Assembly: GCA_965153285.1 (NCBI GenBank)
Contig: OZ229119.1
From: Podarcis tiliguerta
Taxonomy: Eukaryota
Strand: one strand, 5' to 3'
DNA length: 64,000 nt
Below, piece by piece: positions 52,601 through 61,900 of this stretch; the stretch's first letter is position 1, and every line of letters begins with the position of its first letter. Position numbers: made by a program.

Positions 52601-55600
52601 CTTTTGGGATCACAGGAAGATCTCTTGGAATATGCAGGCAACTGGGTGTCTGCCATTTTTAGGCCCTTCATTTTAGAGTGTGAGTGTGTGGGGGGGAAGA
52701 ATTTCAGGAATCACAATTTCATGCACTACAATCATTTAGTTGCGTGGCAATACCCGCCCCCTCCCACATGAGTAGAAATAAAGACACGGACACAAGAATT
52801 AAGGTTAAATGGGCATAAATGGCCACAACTTTATTGATTACAGGTAAGAAAGGTATTGGCATTTAGGCATTGGCCCTAACCAGCTATCCGGTCTAACCGG
52901 GAAGGGTTAAACACCAACAGGGGGAGCCCCCCGAGATGTACATCCGTAGGCGCCCCCCCAGGGGTTACCGCTCGGGGGCGCGCTTTAGGCCCTAGCCTCC
53001 GTAGGTTTCGGACGAGGCGACGCCCCTCGGAGTCCTTTAACGAACTACCCTTCATGATATGGGGGAGGTGATGGCGCTCCTCCCCCCCGTCCACATTTGC
53101 ATGACAATACTGCTGCCAATGCCTAACCGCCAAAACCAGGAAGTTGTGATGTTTTGCTACGAGGTAGGCGAAAAAACCAAGAGGCTTCAAAACGTAGCCA
53201 ATTAGCCAAATGGAAAAACTCCTACCAGGCCCCTTGCGGCGACCAGCCGAAGCCCATAGCAAAGTCCAGGGCAAACCTAGAGGGAGGGTGGGTGGGAAAC
53301 GAGCTGCTGCTGAGGAGAGAAAAGGGGCGAGCCGAGGGCTGCCCCGACCTTATATTGACCTAAGGACCGCCCCCCGAGCCAGCCGATTGGCTGGCCGGGG
53401 GAAACCTAAAGTAATTAGGGGAATCCCGGGGAATCCCGCGGGGCTGACTAGCCCCGCGAGAATGTCGTCGTGGGCGCGTGCCCGCAATCCCACCCCCTCT
53501 CCATATCGGGAGTGGCTTTGCGTGGCAATACCCGCCCCCTCCCACATGAGTAGAAATAAAGACACGGACACAAGAATTAAGGTTAAATGGGCATAAATGG
53601 CCACAACTTTATTGATTACAGGTAAGAAAGGTATTGGCATTTAGGCATTGGCCCTAACCAGCTATCCGGTCTAACCGGGAAGGGTTAAACACCAACAGGG
53701 GGAGCCCCCCGAGATGTACATCCGTAGGCGCCCCCCCAGGGGTTACCGCTCGGGGGCGCGCTTTAGGCCCTAGCCTCCGTAGGTTTCGGACGAGGCGACG
53801 CCCCTCGGAGTCCTTTAACGAACTACCCTTCATGATATGGGGGAGGTGATGGCGCTCCTCCCCCCCGTCCACATTTGCATGACAATACCCCTGCCAATGC
53901 CTAACCGCCACCGAGCCAAGGCTCGCCGCCAATACCTTCAAACCTGTAACCAATCCCTAACTCCCTGAGCGATATCGGCCAACCACAAGTCGTTGCCTGC
54001 ATCGGACAGATGCACGCCATCCTCACGGTAAAGCGCCTCAAAGCTGAACCGAATACCCGGGTGGGTGATAACCCGGCCCCCCATAGCCACCACTTTCCGA
54101 GACACTGAGCGCTCCAAAAGCCTCCTGGCCTTGCTGACAGCCACCTGGCTCGTGGCGTCCCGCCACCAACGTCTCTCCAGCAGGGATGACCATATGATAG
54201 TCAGCGTCGGGTGTGAATTCCGCAATTCACCCAGGTCATTAACAATATTCCACATGAGATCGACCCCATTTCTGTAAGCCAAGTCGTTCTCGCCTAGCTG
54301 GACGACGAGCGCTTCTGGTGCGCCCTCCGCTGCAATTTTATTGGACACCGTCGGGAGGAACTCTACCCAACGCATACCCCGACGGGCCACCCAAGTGACT
54401 TCAATCTCGACCTTGCCAGGAGGATGTAAATTGGCCCGCCACCCTGTGGCATACGCCCTCTGTCTGGCCCAGTGTACAATGCTATGACCCACGATCCACA
54501 GGCGTATCGCACCAGCACCTGAAATGATAAAGCAAAAGGAAAACCGGGTAAGGGGGGGGAAGCGTGAGGAAGGAGGAAGGGGAATTAAGAAGGAAGGGGA
54601 ATTAACGAGGCTTCCTAATGTATCCCTTATAAGCGTTTGACTTCCAGCGACCGAGATCCATTATACGCTCCGCCGGTAACCCCATGTGCATAGCTATGGT
54701 AGCGGCCCCAATGCGGAAGGAATGCGCGGCAAACTCATCGGATGGGAGCCCTATGGCCGCGATCACCTTGCGCATTACTCTCGTGAACTGCTGCTTGGAA
54801 AGACAAGACCCATCCGCGTGTATAAAGAAAGGTCCCCTGAGTTCTGGCCTCACGAGCAGGTACTTCCTGGCGTCCTTCACTGGGCAGGGACCAGCCCTTT
54901 GCGTCGCTTGCAAGCGGATAGTGGCCCCTTTGCCTAATTGATCGGTCTTAGAGCTGCGTATTTTCAATAAGACCTCACTGTTACCAACAGAGACATCCTC
55001 TAGGCGGAGGCCCTTAAGGGTGCCACCCACATGCTCCTCGCAAACTACCTCACTTATCCGCAGCGCGCCGAAAAAGGCGAAGGAGAATGCTGCTGAAAAT
55101 AGTCTAGCCTCATAAGTAGACCAGCAGATGGCTCTGAGCTTAGCGCGGATCTCAGTGAGCAAGCTCAGGGTTATAGGTCTCCTACCATCCTGGCTAGGAG
55201 GCTGGGCCCTGCGCCAACCCTCGAGCATCTTCCTCACCACGAAATGTGCACATGGGTCAACCGAGAACAGGGTTTTGGAGAAGAATGAGATTGCAGCGGA
55301 TTGGATATTAAGTGTCTTGGGGGCCCGGCCAAGGTCGCGAAGATAAACAAGGTACTCTATGACCTCAGCCTGCGCTGGAGCCCTGCCTATTTTGAACAAC
55401 CCCTTCTTTTGGTGAAATGCTGTGAAGTCCATCCACGCCTTGCTATAGGATCTCAAAGTTGACGGTGCGATAGCAGACAATACTCCCTTCAAGGCTTCTC
55501 GCTGCCAATACTCCAGAGGTGCTCCGGAAACGGTTGCGGCTGCTGCTGCGCATCCGGCGCTAACATGCGAAAGCGATCCATCTGGAAGCGAGACAGAGCG

Positions 55601-58930: not shown

Positions 58931-61900
58931 TTCTGAATTAATTACCTAGCGTAAATACTGTGTCCTCTTAATACCTATTTATTTATATATATATATGTAT
59001 ATGCAATGCTATTTATTTAAACAATCCTTCTTTTTTTTTTGTATTTATTCATTCATTCATTTATTTATTTATTAGCCAATTTATTTATTTCTGACTCGAC
59101 TATTGCTTATCGCTTGTCAGTAACTTCACTAAGGTGATGTTAGTCTTATTTATTTACCTCTTTATTAACTGGTTTATACGCCAAGTAAGGATGTGGCCCA
59201 ATTATTATTTGCGATTACAAGGGGTGAGAATTAGGCCGGCGCTGCTTTGCCCTCACTAGAAATGGCCGATGCAGCAACAGCGAGGGCGGTCCAAAGATGG
59301 CAGCGCCCCTTGCCCCACTCAAAATGGCTGCCCGACAGCAGTAGGTGCAATCAAAATGGCGGCGCCCTCTGCCACGCTCAAGATGGCCGCCGCGACGGGA
59401 CCACGTGGTCCTGCAGCAAAACGACCGCCCCTAGCACGTCGCCGTAGCAACGGGCAAATCTGTCGGCAGTAAGCACCGCTCCGATAAAGTAAAAGATATA
59501 AAGTTTTTAATTAAAGTCCCTATGTATACGCGGCACCGCGGCACCCGCACGCCCAGGCTACGTTAAAAAGTCCCGAAACCCAGGATGTGTAGGGAAAGGC
59601 TGGCAAGCAGAGACACAGAGTGTCCCTGCAAAATAGTTTCCCGAACGCGGGTAATTTGATCAGCCGAATAAGCGTAGCTAGCGGAATAGTTACTCAAACC
59701 AGGCGAAAGGAACACGGCAAAAGTCCCAGAAGCCCCGGACCGTACCGGGCGCGAGAAGACGCGAGCCCCCCCACGGCACTGCAACTGCACCCCAAAGGAA
59801 GGCGGGTTATAGAAATCCACGTGGGCAGCCGCCCGAGGAAGGTCACAGACGTATGAACAAGCAGGTAAACGCAGGAAAATAAGGTCAGCAAGTTAAGGTC
59901 AGAATAAAGAGGAAAATAACCGGAAATAACCGAAAATAAGAGGAAAACAAAGACGACCTGACGAGCGCGGTAGCAGCTCGTAGCGGGGAGTCCCCAATCT
60001 GTGCTGTGCGATCGCCGCTCCAGGGATGTTCGTGGCAGTTGCGTCCGGGGCGCAGAACGGAGATGTAAAGCAGATCGAGGCAAATAAGAACGAGGCAAGC
60101 TGCGCAAAGAGCTGCTAAACGAGCTGCTGCTGAGGAGAGAAAAGGGGCGAGCCGAGGGCTGCCCCGACCTTATATTGACCTAAGGACCGCCCCCCGAGCC
60201 AGCCGATTGGCTGGCCGGGGGAAACCTAAAGTAATTAGGGGAATCCCGGGGAATCCCGCGGGGCTGACTAGCCCCGCGAGAATGTCGTCGTGGGCGCGTG
60301 CCCGCAATCCCACCCCCTCTCCATATCGGGAGTGGCTTTCTGCACACTCTCTTGCAATGTGCTAAGCTAAAGCAAAAACCAACACGTGATCAGGACAGTT
60401 CTCAGACCATTACGCAGACAAATGTCCAGATATTCTCAGGGACATGGCACACAACAAATGTGTGTTACACAATGCTATGGCTGCTGGATTGTGAAGCTGA
60501 TTGATTGGTAATGGTGAAGAATGATAAGTGTTTGCTCAAAGAAGAGCTAACAACTGGCAATGTTTTCCTGTTCATCTGTAGGAATGGGTCTGAGTTTAAC
60601 ATGAATGTCTATGGCAGTAATAGAATCACAGATTTGGAGAGGGCTTTGTCTGCTATCTATTCCAACCTCTGTCAAAGCAGGAAATCTAGTACTATAGCAT
60701 CTCCAGCAGTTGGGTGTTCAGCCTAGACTTGCAGACCATCAGTGAGGAACACCTCACCACCCTAGGCAATTGGTTCCATAGTTAAGCTATCCTTACCATC
60801 AAGATGTGTCTGCTAATGTTTAAACAAAATCTATCCATGTTATTTTCTTGTATGTGTGTAAAGAAACAGGCACTGCAAATACGTCACAGGACTCCAGAGT
60901 GTTCTTATCCAAAGGAAACTAAGCTGGGGACTTCTTACCATTTGGGGAATGCAGCAGTTGGAGGCACTTGAAGGGGGGGAATGAGACTAGGGATAAAGGA
61001 GCAATGCAATTCAGTTCACATGTAAAGGCAAAACGGCTTAATCGACCATAAATTCTGGTGCATTAGGCGACTGGGTGTATTAGACGACCCCCAAAATTGG
61101 CAGCTGCAGTCTTATAAGCCCAGTAGCCTAATACGCTGGACAGCTCCGTGCTGGGAGAAAGCCGCCCGGCGCTGAGCAGAGCCCGCTGCCCCTGCTGCTG
61201 CTTCCGAAGCAGCAGTGGGTGGGCTCTGTGCCAGGCGGCTCTCTTCTGGTGCGGAGCGGAACCCGCCACCGCTGCAGCCGCTTCAGGGCCGTTGCAGCAG
61301 CAGCGGGGGGAACGCATACCCGGCATATAAGATGACCCCCGACTTTTTAATCTCTTTTCCGGGGTTAAAAAGTCAACTTATACGCCAGAATTTACGGTAC
61401 ACTTTCCGAAATAACACACCAGCTGATACATAGCTATCCTTTGAAATTCACACGACTCCAATGCATTTGTCCAGTCCAGTCCAGTCATGTGCACAAAAAT
61501 GCACAAAAAAACCATAGAACTGCAAGTATTAGTGAAAGTAACGTACAAAAACGAATTATTCTAAGGAAAATTGTTTTGCAGAAACATGTGTAATTAGGCA
61601 AAATTGCATACAAATATGTATTGAGAGAAATCCGCACTAAAACGCTGGTGGTGTTTCATGAGGACTTTTTTTTTAAAAAATCCACCACTGACTGCAGTGA
61701 GCATCCCATTGGGATAGGTACCAGTCTTTGATCGGGACGCTGCTAATGTGTGTGCCCAGTTGCACCCACTCAGGAGTGTGCAAAATTGCTGTCTGGATTT
61801 TCGTCCTCTGAAAGGAAACTTTGTAGCGCTAAAACTTTGATGGGTTCAAGTGGTTAAATATTTGTTATATTGAACAAACACACTGAAGGGAGCTGTCATG

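What the first reader, a model, noticed from the sequence alone, without database searches (positions are those of the whole stretch)
52742..60339. Intact, apparently very recent Ngaro-type YR retrotransposon with four ORFs
Seen: four uninterrupted ORFs with all catalytic motifs, A repeats identical over 223 bp, B repeats 389/391 identical, and CpGs not eroded, unlike the flanks. Known: the A1-ORFs-B1-A2-B2 layout defines Ngaro/PAT-like elements, which are thought to integrate via a circular intermediate. Inference: a transposition-competent copy that may be polymorphic among individuals, and a usable model for a poorly studied amniote YR retroelement. Repeat identity alone does not date it, but ORF integrity and CpG retention agree.
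Basis: partly seen in the sequence, partly recalled or inferred. Interest (0 to 1): 0.8.

Follow-up and report, generated by a model that had tools for sequence, protein, structure and literature searches.

The report
Young complete Ngaro retrotransposon in lizard
A 7.6-kb mobile element of the little-studied Ngaro (tyrosine-recombinase) kind sits here almost unworn in what looks like a lacertid lizard genome; it is a good new specimen of a known family, and its layout suggests that two of its four proteins are made from spliced messages.

Summary
Window 52740-60339, minus strand, is one 7,600-bp element laid out as A1, leader, four ORFs, B1·A2, a 164-bp spacer and B2. A is 223/223 identical and B is 391/393. 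CpG o/e is 0.75, against 0.24-0.31 in the flanks.

The ORFs are Gag-like, RT/RNase H, tyrosine recombinase and an SGNH esterase. All catalytic columns are kept. This is the four-ORF Ngaro-like type described in Xenopus (PMC9210276). The nearest proteins are from lacertid lizards, at most 84% identical. It is a new member of a known kind.

"Intact and competent" is only partly supported:
- ORF3 and ORF4 have no ATG ahead of their domains.
- ORF1 and ORF2 are offset by -1, where three relatives' models read one frame. That is one possible frameshift-type difference.
- The leader holds 22 AATAAA hexamers.

Copy number and polymorphism could not be tested.

New reading: each ATG-less ORF follows a phase-1 splice acceptor, and ORF1 holds a phase-1 donor where relatives' gene models leave Gag. 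The recombinase and esterase are then probably made from spliced messages as Gag-N fusions. I saw no RNA evidence.

The parts
52740..60339 (-). Whole Ngaro-type element, 7,600 bp
   Evidence: Repeat bounds. CpG and GC step at both ends. No other fragment of it elsewhere in the window.
60117..60339 (-). A1, the 5' split direct repeat (223 bp). It carries CCAAT (60210) and TATAAGG (60174-60168).
   Evidence: 100% identical to A2. Motif positions. The promoter role is inferred.
58635..60116 (-). Leader (1,482 bp). It is T-rich at its 5' part. It holds four GCCATYTT motifs (59294-59387) and an AT-rich (AAAT)n tract (about 58847-59230) with 22 sense AATAAA hexamers.
   Evidence: CpG o/e is 1.14 over 58653-60116. 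The open frames here have no ATG and no Pfam hit.
57219..58634 (-). ORF1, Gag-like, 471 aa from the ATG. The N-terminal third is low-complexity and basic, followed by a conserved helical core and C-terminal CCCH plus CCHC-like fingers.
   Evidence: Weak Pfam zf-CCCH_10 hit at 5.5e-4. 61% identity to the Gag part of a Podarcis muralis model over residues 7-419. Fold not resolved.
58008..58013 (-). Candidate 5' splice donor in ORF1 (CAG|GTA). The last exon base is 58010, phase 1, after ORF1 residue 208.
   Evidence: rank 18 of 371 GT sites by a crude matrix. Relatives' Gag-N fusion models leave Gag at ORF1 residues 204-218. The shared Gag-N parts end at the junction.
55489..57285 (-). ORF2, reverse transcriptase plus RNase H, 598 aa. 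It has its own ATG directly after a stop, overlaps ORF1 by 67 nt and lies in the -1 frame.
   Evidence: Pfam RVT_1, 47 bits against a cut-off of 29.6. Catalytic columns. The family profile matches foamy-virus PR-RT-RH and Ty3 RT. 1143 relatives at E<=1e-10.
54602..55609 (-). ORF3, tyrosine recombinase. The open frame has 335 codons. The ORF lister starts it at 55492 on a non-ATG codon. The predicted phase-1 acceptor puts the first exon base at 55581.
   Evidence: Pfam Phage_integrase, 28.0 bits against 27.1, plus a SAM-like N domain. R, K, HxxR, W and Y are kept. The profile matches Cre recombinase at 1e-9. Acceptor. Relatives' models join other exons at the homologous point.
54519..54601 (-). 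Pyrimidine tract between the ORF3 stop and ORF4 (71 of 83 nt are C or T) ending in CAG. It is the most pyrimidine-rich stretch of the element's sense strand.
   Evidence: A 17-nt tandem unit lies here. It is the best-ranked of 474 AG sites.
53938..54518 (-). ORF4, SGNH/GDSL esterase domain, about 193 aa. The open frame reaches up to 54660. There is no ATG before the block I serine.
   Evidence: AlphaFold2 pLDDT 95.4. Foldseek gives 182 PDB hits at E<=1e-3, all named natural top hits being SGNH/GDSL esterases. 1386 relatives at E<=1e-3.
53518..53910 (-). B1, the internal copy of the 3' repeat (393 bp), with AATAAA at 53613. It abuts A2 with a 2-nt overlap.
53297..53519 (-). A2, the internal copy of A. 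B1·A2 is the internal image of the closed-circle junction B2|A1.
   Evidence: The role is inferred from the published DIRS/Ngaro model (PMC7192593, PMC8547959, passages).
53133..53296 (-). Unique 164-bp spacer between A2 and B2.
   Evidence: No unusual RNA structure (z +1.65). No Pfam hit for the frame across it.
52740..53132 (-). B2, the 3' terminal repeat (393 bp), with AATAAA at 52835-52830.

Best explanation
This is one full-length, recently inserted copy of an Ngaro-type tyrosine-recombinase retrotransposon. It is the four-ORF form that carries an SGNH esterase. The host looks like a squamate, and the nearest relatives are in lacertid lizards.

Shown:
- The split direct repeats A1...B1·A2-spacer-B2.
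- A Gag-like ORF1, RT/RNase H, a Cre-like tyrosine recombinase with its full catalytic set, and a confidently folded SGNH esterase.
- No integrase, protease or methyltransferase.
- No target-site duplication.

Inferred from the anatomy and the published DIRS/Ngaro model:
- Transcription starts about 30 nt after the TATA box in A1 and ends after the AATAAA in B2.
- The RNA therefore lacks both outer ends.
- Reverse transcription restores them from the internal B1·A2 junction.
- The recombinase inserts the closed form by a crossover in the 2-nt AA that the junction shares with the target.

Inferred here:
- ORF3 and ORF4 are not started at an ATG of their own.
- Each is reached through a phase-1 splice acceptor from a phase-1 donor in ORF1.
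- The recombinase and the esterase would then be made from spliced subgenomic messages, each fused to the first ~208 residues of Gag.
- How ORF2 is reached is unresolved: by its own ATG, or by a -1 shift from ORF1.

Whether this copy can still move is not shown.
For: Layout and repeats.

Domains:
- Pfam RVT_1 at 47 bits, Phage_integrase at 28.0 bits against a cut-off of 27.1, Phage_int_SAM_4, and weak GDSL_2.
- Catalytic columns are kept in 23-24 of 24 rows and 37-40 of 40 rows.
- The recombinase profile matches Cre at 1e-9, with 17 PDB hits.
- The RT profile matches foamy-virus PR-RT-RH at 3e-7 and Ty3 RT, with 8 hits.
- The ORF4 model has pLDDT 95.4 and pTM 0.91. Foldseek gives TM 0.74-0.77 to GDSL acylhydrolases and also hits sialate O-acetylesterases.
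- Six other open frames in the element have no Pfam hit.
- No inverted repeats lie inside the element.

Ends: the B1/A2 overlap is AA and the flanks share nothing more.

Youth:
- 2 adjacent differences in 616 repeat positions.
- 0 of 41 repeat CpGs differ.
- CpG o/e is 0.75 against 0.23-0.31.

Family:
- PMC9210276 (passages) defines Ngaro-like by A1...B1 A2 B2 and reports Xenopus families with four ORFs including SGNH.
- PMC8547959 (passages) gives A1-[ORFs]-B1A2B2.
- PMC7192593 (passages) says DIRS and PAT carry a methylase and some Ngaro carry a hydrolase.

Splicing:
- The ORF4 acceptor is rank 1 of 474 AG sites and sits after the most pyrimidine-rich 80 nt of the element.
- Conservation among 15 hydrolase sequences begins exactly there.
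- The ORF3 acceptor and the ORF1 donor are both phase 1.
- Gene models in Podarcis, Zootoca and other squamates join a Gag-N part to the hydrolase, to the recombinase or to RT.
- In 5 of 6 pairs tested the models share a Gag-N part. In 4 of those 5 the shared part ends right at the junction, and in the fifth (P0128/P0010) it stops about ten residues short of it.
- One Zootoca locus carries both an RT/RH isoform and a Gag-N-hydrolase isoform.
- Three recombinase models carry unrelated 5' exons joined at the same point.
Against: Family placement:
- I could build no RT or recombinase tree with named Ngaro, DIRS1 or PAT references, because no tool fetches them. Clade placement rests on architecture and domain content.

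Splicing:
- It rests on gene models and on splice-site signals. I saw no RNA reads.
- The ORF1 donor ranks only 18th of 371 and the ORF3 acceptor 15th of 474 by a crude matrix built from recalled frequencies.
- Automatic BLASTP finds an ORF1-like N-terminus in only 2 of 150 hydrolase-bearing proteins at default settings. It finds one in 0-1 of 11 long recombinase models. The Gag-N part is low-complexity.
- 9 of 150 models join recombinase parts to the hydrolase instead.
- Some relatives' recombinase models start with Met where the window has a non-ATG codon.

Competence:
- Gag and RT are one frame in 3 of 3 relatives' models that span the junction, but are offset in the window.
- No stabilising RNA structure follows the overlap (z +0.49).
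- 22 sense AATAAA hexamers lie in the leader.

Other copies:
- No protein 90% or more identical to ORF2, ORF3 or ORF4 is in the protein collection. Nothing speaks for sister copies. The host's unannotated copies would not be in that collection.
Confidence: 0.8

Rival explanations
1. The copy is young and structurally complete but already dead. Under this reading the Gag/RT frame offset is a real frameshift-type lesion or a homopolymer assembly error. ORF3 has lost its own start. The AT-rich microsatellite in the leader ends transcripts early.
For: - 3 of 3 relatives' models that span the Gag/RT junction read one continuous frame (P0005 and P0006, P0013).
- Lacerta agilis and Eublepharis recombinase models start with Met at the column where the window has a non-ATG codon.
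- 22 of 26 sense AATAAA hexamers lie in the leader.
- No RNA structure follows the overlap.
Against: - ORF2 has an ATG of its own, and a -1 offset with overlap is the usual gag-pol arrangement.
- One formally slippery pattern lies in phase in that overlap, and none lies in the other two overlaps.
- A close Podarcis recombinase model (P0138) also lacks Met at that column.
- The lack of an ATG in ORF3 and ORF4 is explained by acceptors shared with relatives.
- There are no stops in 1,700 codons, and all catalytic columns are kept.
Confidence: 0.3
2. ORF3 and ORF4 are reached by translation, not by splicing. The routes would be frameshifting, termination-reinitiation or non-AUG starts at the ORF overlaps, as is usually assumed for overlapping DIRS/Ngaro ORFs.
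For: - All ORFs overlap: by 67, 121 and 59 nt.
- ORF2 to ORF3 is a -1 step.
- PMC9210276 (passage) says all four reading frames overlap.
- Some models join nearly the whole recombinase to the hydrolase (P0180 and P0196).
Against: - No X XXY YYZ pattern lies in the ORF2/ORF3 or ORF3/ORF4 overlaps.
- ORF3 to ORF4 would need a +1 step.
- The strongest acceptor signal of the element sits exactly at the start of ORF4 conservation.
- Unrelated 5' exons are joined at the same points in relatives.
Confidence: 0.25
3. It is a PAT-like or DIRS1-like element rather than Ngaro.
For: PAT-like elements also have split direct repeats (PMC9210276 and PMC7192593, passages). I made no reference phylogeny.
Against: - No methyltransferase domain was found, and ORF2 leaves no room for one: RT and RNase H fill its 598 aa.
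- There are no inverted terminal repeats or internal complementary region.
- A hydrolase ORF follows the recombinase, as in Ngaro (PMC9210276, PMC7192593).
Confidence: 0.03
4. The insertion is old but looks young. Gene conversion would keep the repeats identical, and lack of germline methylation would keep the CpGs.
For: Repeat identity alone does not date an insertion. The leader has CpG o/e above 1, like an unmethylated island.
Against: Three independent signs agree: repeat identity, 0 of 41 repeat CpGs changed, and 1,700 stop-free codons. CpG o/e is high over the whole 7.6 kb, not only in the repeats.
Confidence: 0.05
5. The A/B repeat pattern is an assembly artefact, for example collapsed or chimeric tandem copies.
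For: Perfect repeats of 223-393 bp can mislead assemblers. The window has no N, so it gives no gap signal either way.
Against: The pattern is exactly the defining Ngaro architecture. B1·A2 overlap by the same 2 nt that end the element. The Xenopus DIRS-53_XT copy shows the same pattern with 100% identical repeats (PMC9210276, passage).
Confidence: 0.03

Closest known systems
[quoted passage not shown]
   Same: - Four overlapping ORFs: gag-like, RT/RH, YR and SGNH hydrolase.
- Split direct repeats A1...B1 A2 B2 with 100% identical copies.
- No methyltransferase.
- Xenopus proteins match ORF2 at 46-51% identity over 87-97% of its length.
   Different: - The host is a squamate.
- B is 393 bp, against 152 bp in DIRS-53_XT. 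A is 223 bp, against 236 bp.
- A 164-bp spacer separates A2 from B2.
- The leader is 1.5 kb with a microsatellite.
- That paper called ORFs with ATG only and does not mention splicing: 0 occurrences of 'splic' or 'intron'.
DrNgaro1 / Ngaro1_DR of zebrafish, the founding Ngaro (named in PMC9210276 and PMC4746887; the primary paper is not held)
   Same: An A1-[ORFs]-B1A2B2 architecture with RT/RH and YR, and without integrase or protease (as summarised in PMC8547959 and PMC9210276).
   Different: No sequence comparison was possible, because no tool fetches it. What I know of its ORF content beyond these summaries is recalled.
DIRS-1 of Dictyostelium and DIRS1-like elements
   Same: A YR retrotransposon whose ends are restored from an internal copy of the junction. 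Short nucleotides at the circle junction are shared with the target, and there is no TSD (PMC7192593, passages).
   Different: DIRS1-like elements have inverted terminal repeats, an internal complementary region and a methyltransferase domain. None of these is present here.
Esterase domain of ORF1p of CR1/L2-type LINEs (PDB 4c1b, zebrafish ZfL2-1)
   Same: An SGNH-fold esterase carried by a retrotransposon and attached to its nucleic-acid-binding first protein. It is a Foldseek hit at E 5e-7 (rank 34). If the splice model holds, the Ngaro esterase is likewise fused to part of Gag.
   Different: The superposition is poor (TM 0.46, rmsd 19). It is a different retrotransposon class, and there the domain lies within ORF1 itself. 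I take the likeness as convergence or distant kinship, not as membership.
Spliced subgenomic messages of complex retroviruses and foamy viruses
   Same: A 5' donor in or near gag is joined to acceptors ahead of downstream genes that lack their own accessible start. The RT profile's best solved match is foamy-virus PR-RT-RH.
   Different: There are no LTRs, env or integrase here. The likeness concerns expression logic only. It rests on my knowledge of retroviruses plus the gene models seen here.

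Membership tests
Ngaro (YR retrotransposons, order DIRS) | Split direct repeats A1-[ORFs]-B1 A2 B2, with A1=A2 and B1=B2 | tested here: met
   A is 223/223 identical and B is 391/393. B1 abuts A2 with a 2-nt overlap. One deviation: 164 unique bp lie between A2 and B2.
Ngaro (YR retrotransposons, order DIRS) | Reverse transcriptase plus RNase H of the LTR-retroelement type | tested here: met
   RVT_1 scores 47 bits against a cut-off of 29.6. The RT Asp, YxDD and RNase H DEDD columns are kept in 23-24 of 24 rows. 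The profile matches Ty3 and foamy-virus RT. UniRef names the relatives 'ribonuclease H'.
Ngaro (YR retrotransposons, order DIRS) | Tyrosine recombinase in place of DDE integrase, and no aspartic protease | tested here: met
   PF00589 scores 28.0 bits against 27.1, with PF13495 as well. R, K, HxxR, W and Y are kept. The profile matches Cre at 1e-9. No integrase or protease family appears at E<=0.1 in the four ORFs or at E<=0.01 in six other frames.
Ngaro (YR retrotransposons, order DIRS) | No methyltransferase domain (this separates Ngaro from DIRS1-like and PAT-like) | tested here: met
   No such Pfam hit was found. RT and RNase H motifs span residues 219-562 of the 598-aa ORF2, which leaves no room.
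Ngaro (YR retrotransposons, order DIRS) | An extra hydrolase (SGNH) ORF after YR, as reported in some Ngaro | tested here: met
   ORF4 keeps blocks I, II, III and V. The AF2 model has pLDDT 95.4. Foldseek matches GDSL/SGNH esterases.
Ngaro (YR retrotransposons, order DIRS) | Insertion without target-site duplication, with short identity between the circle junction and the target | tested here: met
   The flanks share only the AA that B1 and A2 also share. This is a single copy, so site preference is not tested.
Ngaro (YR retrotransposons, order DIRS) | RT and YR sequences fall in the Ngaro clade with reference elements | not testable with these tools
   The reference accessions are named in papers (AY152729 and AAN71721, in PMC9210276 and PMC4746887), but no tool fetches them. 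No hit carried the name Ngaro.
DIRS1-like | Inverted terminal repeats plus an internal complementary region | tested here: not met
   The repeat finder reports 3 inverted pairs, all outside the element at 51547-52288.
PAT-like | Split direct repeats together with a methyltransferase domain | tested here: not met
   The repeats are present, but there is no methyltransferase and a hydrolase is found instead.
LTR retrotransposon / endogenous retrovirus | Two flanking LTRs, a DDE integrase, a protease and a 4-6 bp TSD | tested here: not met
   The terminal repeats differ from each other (A against B). There is no rve or RVP hit and no TSD.
SGNH/GDSL hydrolase superfamily (ORF4) | Conserved Ser (block I), Gly (II), Asn (III) and Asp-x-x-His (V) on a flavodoxin-like alpha/beta fold | tested here: met
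   All five residues are present and are kept in 37-40 of 40 relatives. The fold match has TM 0.74-0.77 to 4ppy, 4iyj, 3p94 and 4hf7. Pfam GDSL_2 alone is below its cut-off: 16.7 bits against 32.9. The block names are recalled.

The most novel reading that the evidence does not exclude
Squamate, and perhaps all four-ORF, Ngaro elements use a retrovirus-like splicing programme. One donor inside gag, after the basic and acidic N-terminal third, is joined alternatively to acceptors in front of the recombinase and the esterase. Both enzymes are then made as Gag-N fusions from subgenomic messages. That would explain why these ORFs lack start codons.

The same strong acceptors would make intronic Ngaro copies act as exon traps, giving chimeric host transcripts. 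Examples are the PRP39-, CSDE1-, VGLL4- and CIR-hydrolase models.

I found no mention of Ngaro splicing in the following:
- The 15 papers listed of the 97 that hold 'Ngaro' and 'splic' (listing only).
- Two Ngaro-focused papers searched in full text.

The primary Ngaro papers are not held, so this may already be in print.
Probability: 0.5. Interest if true: 0.6.

Novelty: new member of a known kind. Interest (0 to 1): 0.45.

Why it matters
Ngaro elements are among the least studied retrotransposons. In amniotes they are barely described. One 2016 survey states that the group is absent from lizards (PMC4746887, passage). Yet the protein collection holds hundreds of Ngaro-type RT, recombinase and hydrolase models from lacertids, geckos, anoles, a cordylid, an amphisbaenian and a snake.

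A complete, young copy with all repeats and catalytic sites gives a clean reference for annotating that family. At present the family is scattered over genome annotations as 'uncharacterized protein', 'xerD homolog' or chimeric host genes.

If the splice reading holds, it answers how overlapping, ATG-less Ngaro ORFs are expressed. It would also attach the puzzling esterase to Gag, in parallel with the esterase of LINE ORF1 proteins.

Tried and rejected
- Bacterial promoter and terminator scan of the element: 6 promoter-like sites against 5.9 expected and 16 terminator-like sites against 10.0. Irrelevant to a eukaryotic element.
- Rfam at gathering thresholds on the whole window: 0 matches. ARAGORN: 0 tRNAs.
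- Single-sequence phmmer of ORF2 and ORF3 against the PDB: nothing meaningful. Family profiles were needed.
- ORF1 nature. The Atlas search gave only unnamed clusters and one 'C3H1-type' name. The AlphaFold2 model of the C-terminal half, from an 8-sequence alignment, reached only pLDDT 54.6. Its Foldseek search gave 0 hits at E<=0.001. The fold is unresolved.
- RNA folding of the ORF1/ORF2 overlap region and of the A2-B2 spacer: z +0.49 and +1.65, so no more stable than shuffles.
- GCCATYTT enrichment in the whole window is not significant: 12 found against 7.4 expected, and 8 of 100 shuffles reached 12. Only the cluster of 4 within 94 bp stands out.
- Other fragments of the element in the window: none by blastn or tblastn, apart from a microsatellite match.
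- Automatic BLASTP detection of Gag-N parts in fusion models is unreliable because of low complexity. It found 2 of 150 and 0-1 of 11, against 6 of 17 with composition correction off.
- NCBIfam: only weak XerD and XerC hits, far below their cut-offs.
- A Gag-to-RT splice matching the Podarcis models was looked for. The in-frame partners I could see in the window would be a stretch chosen to bridge the frame change, so I dropped it.
- Not used, because they cannot hold lizard DNA: genome contigs (bacteria and archaea only) and the phage, plasmid and E. coli collections.
- Closed: metagenome contigs, viral contigs and the supplementary files of papers.

Full report
1. WHAT IS THERE

On the minus strand, 60339 down to 52740 (7,600 bp), the parts lie in this order:
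- A1: 223 bp.
- A 1,482-bp leader.
- ORF1: ATG at 58634, ending at 57219, 471 aa.
- ORF2: 57285 to 55489, 598 aa.
- ORF3: open frame 55609 to 54602.
- ORF4: open frame 54660 to 53938.
- B1: 393 bp.
- A2: 223 bp.
- A unique 164-bp spacer.
- B2: 393 bp.

A1 and A2 are identical. B1 and B2 differ at two adjacent positions. B1 and A2 overlap by the dinucleotide AA.

The window has no N. Its only ORFs of 180 aa or more are the four element ORFs and one overlapping alternative frame (5 of 5). No other piece of the element occurs elsewhere in the window.

CpG o/e is 0.75 in the element. It is 0.24 in the left flank, 0.31 in the right flank and 0.23 over positions 1-45000. Outside the element, 55 one-kb blocks have median 0.23 and maximum 0.68.

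2. WHAT THE ORFS ARE

ORF2 matches Pfam RVT_1 at 47 bits against a cut-off of 29.6.
- The motif-A Asp, YxDD and the four RNase H acidic residues are kept in 23-24 of 24 aligned relatives.
- A family profile finds foamy-virus PR-RT-RH and Ty3 RT in the PDB.

ORF3 matches Phage_integrase at 28.0 bits against 27.1, and also the SAM-like N domain.
- Arg, Lys, His-x-x-Arg, Trp and the Tyr nucleophile are kept in 23-24 of 24 relatives.
- The profile finds Cre recombinase at 1e-9.
- Many relatives are named 'integrase/recombinase xerD homolog'.

ORF4 matches GDSL_2 only weakly in Pfam, at 16.7 bits.
- It has all SGNH blocks.
- Its AlphaFold2 model has pLDDT 95.4.
- The model matches GDSL acylhydrolases at TM 0.74-0.77, sialate O-acetylesterases, PAF acetylhydrolase and, weakly, the esterase domain of a zebrafish LINE ORF1 protein.

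ORF1 has a low-complexity basic N-terminal third, a conserved core and C-terminal zinc fingers.
- Its fold stayed unresolved.
- 'Gag-like' rests on position, the fingers and the literature.

No integrase, protease or methyltransferase was found. The assignment of residues to named motifs is from my own knowledge.

3. FAMILY

The literature I could read gives these criteria:
- Ngaro has split direct repeats: A1 at the 5' end and B1, A2, B2 at the 3' end.
- Ngaro has no methyltransferase.
- In amphibians there is a fourth ORF with an SGNH hydrolase (PMC9210276, passages; PMC8547959, passages; PMC7192593, passages).

The element meets every architectural criterion. DIRS1-like (inverted repeats plus an internal complementary region) and PAT-like (methyltransferase) are not met.

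I could not make a tree with named reference elements, so clade placement is by architecture.

The closest proteins are from these hosts:
- Podarcis muralis: ORF2 at 79% over 96% of its length and 84% over 81%; ORF4 at 73%.
- Zootoca vivipara: ORF2 at 72%.
- Lacerta agilis: ORF3 at 60%.
- Then geckos, Anolis sagrei, Hemicordylus, Rhineura and a snake.
- Then frogs and newts, at 45-52%.

No hit reaches 90% identity and none is the window's own protein.

I infer a lacertid host. I do not take the window for human. It carries a retrotransposon order reported absent from mammals (PMC4350176, passage), and the family's nearest relatives are in lizards.

4. AGE

The 616 repeat positions show two adjacent differences. 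None of the 41 CpGs in A plus B differs. With neutral rates of 0.7-2e-9 per site per year, this gives about 0.4-2.3 My, with an upper bound near 5 My. With CpG transition rates of 0.5-2e-8, zero CpG changes give less than about 1-4 My. These rates are recalled, not from a call.

This assumes that A1=A2 and B1=B2 at insertion. That follows from the replication model and was not tested. CpG retention over the whole element agrees with youth. 'Recent' is supported. 'Very recent' and 'polymorphic' are open.

5. HOW IT PROBABLY WORKS

Shown:
- A holds CCAAT and TATAAGG, at 60210 and 60174 in A1.
- B holds AATAAA, at 52835 in B2 and 53613 in B1.

Inferred, following the DIRS-1 model and its extension to Ngaro (PMC7192593, passages):
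- The RNA runs from about 30 nt after the TATA box in A1 to shortly after the AATAAA in B2.
- It therefore lacks about 195 nt of A1 and about 70 nt of B2.
- The internal B1·A2 junction holds both missing parts and serves as the template to restore them.
- The closed form then carries B2|A1, which equals B1·A2.
- The recombinase crosses it with the target.

The flanks show no duplication. Only the AA shared by junction and target is common to them. This fits the short junction nucleotides described for DIRS elements (PMC7192593, passage).

Seen this way, B·A is a composite 'LTR'. The integrated element is half an LTR, then the long unique part, a whole LTR, a short unique part (the 164-bp spacer) and half an LTR. 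I found no function for the spacer.

6. EXPRESSION OF THE ORFS

ORF3 and ORF4 have no ATG ahead of their conserved domains. Their overlaps with the preceding ORFs hold no slippery heptamer.

The 83 nt between the ORF3 stop and ORF4 are 71 pyrimidines ending in CAG. This is the most pyrimidine-rich stretch of the sense strand and the best-ranked of 474 AG sites. Conservation among 15 hydrolase sequences begins exactly there, while the upstream residues are unrelated.

A second acceptor lies in codon 10 of the ORF3 open frame. It ranks 15th of 474.

Both acceptors are phase 1. ORF1 has a phase-1 donor after residue 208, which ranks 18th of 371.

Evidence from relatives:
- Gene models in Podarcis muralis, P. 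lilfordi and Zootoca vivipara join a Gag N-terminal part to the hydrolase. Six of 17 models I inspected do so, and the Gag match ends at ORF1 residues 204-218 in five of them.
- Other models join a Gag N-terminal part to the recombinase (P0137, P0150, P0157) or to RT (P0010).
- In 5 of 6 pairs compared the models share a Gag-N part. In 4 of those 5 the shared part ends at the junction, and in the fifth (P0128/P0010) it stops about ten residues short of it.
- One Zootoca locus is annotated with an RT/RH isoform and a Gag-N-hydrolase isoform.
- Three recombinase models carry unrelated 5' exons joined at the same point.
- Hydrolase-bearing models include chimeras with host proteins. PRP39, CSDE1-like, VGLL4 and CIR are found by Pfam in 4 of 72. 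ZNF318- and ZNF638-like are found by name.
- In 113 of 150 hydrolase-bearing proteins the domain ends within 15 residues of the C-terminus.

I searched each piece on its own: ORF4, ORF3, and ORF1. The joined products were neither built nor searched. That step was left out, and only the phase arithmetic was done.

Against this reading:
- The evidence is gene models and sequence signals, not RNA reads.
- The matrix is crude.
- Default BLASTP sees the Gag-N part in only 2 of 150 proteins and in 0 of 11.
- Nine of 150 models join recombinase parts to the hydrolase.

7. IS IT INTACT?

Stops inside the four ORFs: 0. Insertions or deletions recognisable against relatives in the conserved bodies: none seen.

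One open point concerns ORF1 and ORF2. They are offset by -1 with a 67-nt overlap, and ORF2 has its own ATG. The three relatives' models that span this junction (P0005, P0006, P0013) read Gag and RT in one frame. This is one of three things:
- programmed frameshifting (one formally slippery pattern lies in phase in that overlap, but no structure follows it);
- one frameshift-type difference of this copy;
- an error of its assembly.

I count one possible difference and do not give its place.

The leader's AT-rich tract holds 22 of the 26 sense AATAAA hexamers. Whether it belongs to the family is unknown. 'Transposition-competent' is therefore not established.

8. WHAT STAYED UNCHECKED
- Copy number, sister copies, the empty site and polymorphism.
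- The reference phylogeny.
- Any RNA evidence.
- Repbase and Dfam names.
- Supplementary tables of PMC9210276 (ORF overlaps, copies) and of PMC8547959 could bear on ORF starts and were closed.

9. VERDICT

This is a real, well-preserved, young Ngaro element: a new member of a known kind. The splice-based expression scheme is the part worth following up.

Noticed in passing
window 14502-14987 (+): This open frame has a C-terminal part matching Pfam Rho_GDI at 2e-25 (profile positions 129-193 of 193). It is probably the last coding exon of a host Rho GDP-dissociation inhibitor gene.
   Followed up: partly
window 33346-33702 (+): This open frame matches Thioredoxin_6 at 27.7 bits against a cut-off of 27. 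It is probably an exon of a protein-disulfide-isomerase-like host gene. The element lies about 19 kb downstream on the opposite strand.
   Followed up: no
window 24252-24487, 26901-27148, 51547-51777 and, inverted, 52052-52288: A dispersed repeat of about 230 bp, SINE- or MITE-like, with 83-92% identity between copies (one segment of the 24.3-kb copy only 69%). Two copies form an inverted pair that ends about 450 bp from the element's 3' end. No tRNA or Rfam match.
   Followed up: partly
window 61001-61400: A 400-bp CpG-rich block outside the element, with GC 0.54-0.58 and CpG o/e 0.69-0.89, in otherwise CpG-poor flank. It may be a CpG island or another young repeat.
   Followed up: no
window 59294-59387 (-): Four GCCATYTT motifs lie 27-32 bp apart on the element's sense strand in the leader. 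They form a degenerate tandem of about 30 bp. The core resembles a YY1-type site; that likeness is recalled and was not tested. The count over the whole window is not enriched.
   Followed up: partly
window about 58847-59230 (-): An AT-rich (AAAT)n/(TAA)n microsatellite inside an otherwise GC-rich element. It carries 22 sense AATAAA hexamers upstream of ORF1. It is unknown whether it is a family feature, an intron of the leader or a private expansion.
   Followed up: partly
window 53133-53296 (-): A unique 164-bp spacer between A2 and B2, not part of the usual A1-[ORFs]-B1A2B2 formula. Together, A2 (TATA), the spacer and B2 (AATAAA) form a small promoter-to-poly(A) unit of about 500 nt. It has no ORF with a Pfam hit and no special fold.
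   Followed up: partly
relatives: P0353 (Bombina), P0390 (Scleropages), P0377 (Muraenolepis), P0319 (Mytilus cluster), P0261, P0266 and P0369 (lizards): These gene models have host proteins (PRP39, CSDE1-like, CIR, ZNF318- and ZNF638-like) ending in an Ngaro-type SGNH domain. This is what a strong acceptor plus poly(A) signal inside intronic copies would produce. They may also be annotation artefacts.
   Followed up: partly
PDB 4c1b (rank 34): The ORF4 model also hits the esterase domain of the ORF1 protein of the zebrafish LINE ZfL2-1 (E 5e-7, TM 0.46). This is a second case of a retrotransposon carrying an SGNH-type esterase next to its nucleic-acid-binding protein.
   Followed up: no
literature: PMC4746887 (2016, passage) states that Ngaro is absent from western clawed frog and lizards. 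PMC9210276 (2021) describes Ngaro-like families in Xenopus. The protein hits here show Ngaro-type genes in at least ten squamate species.
   Followed up: partly
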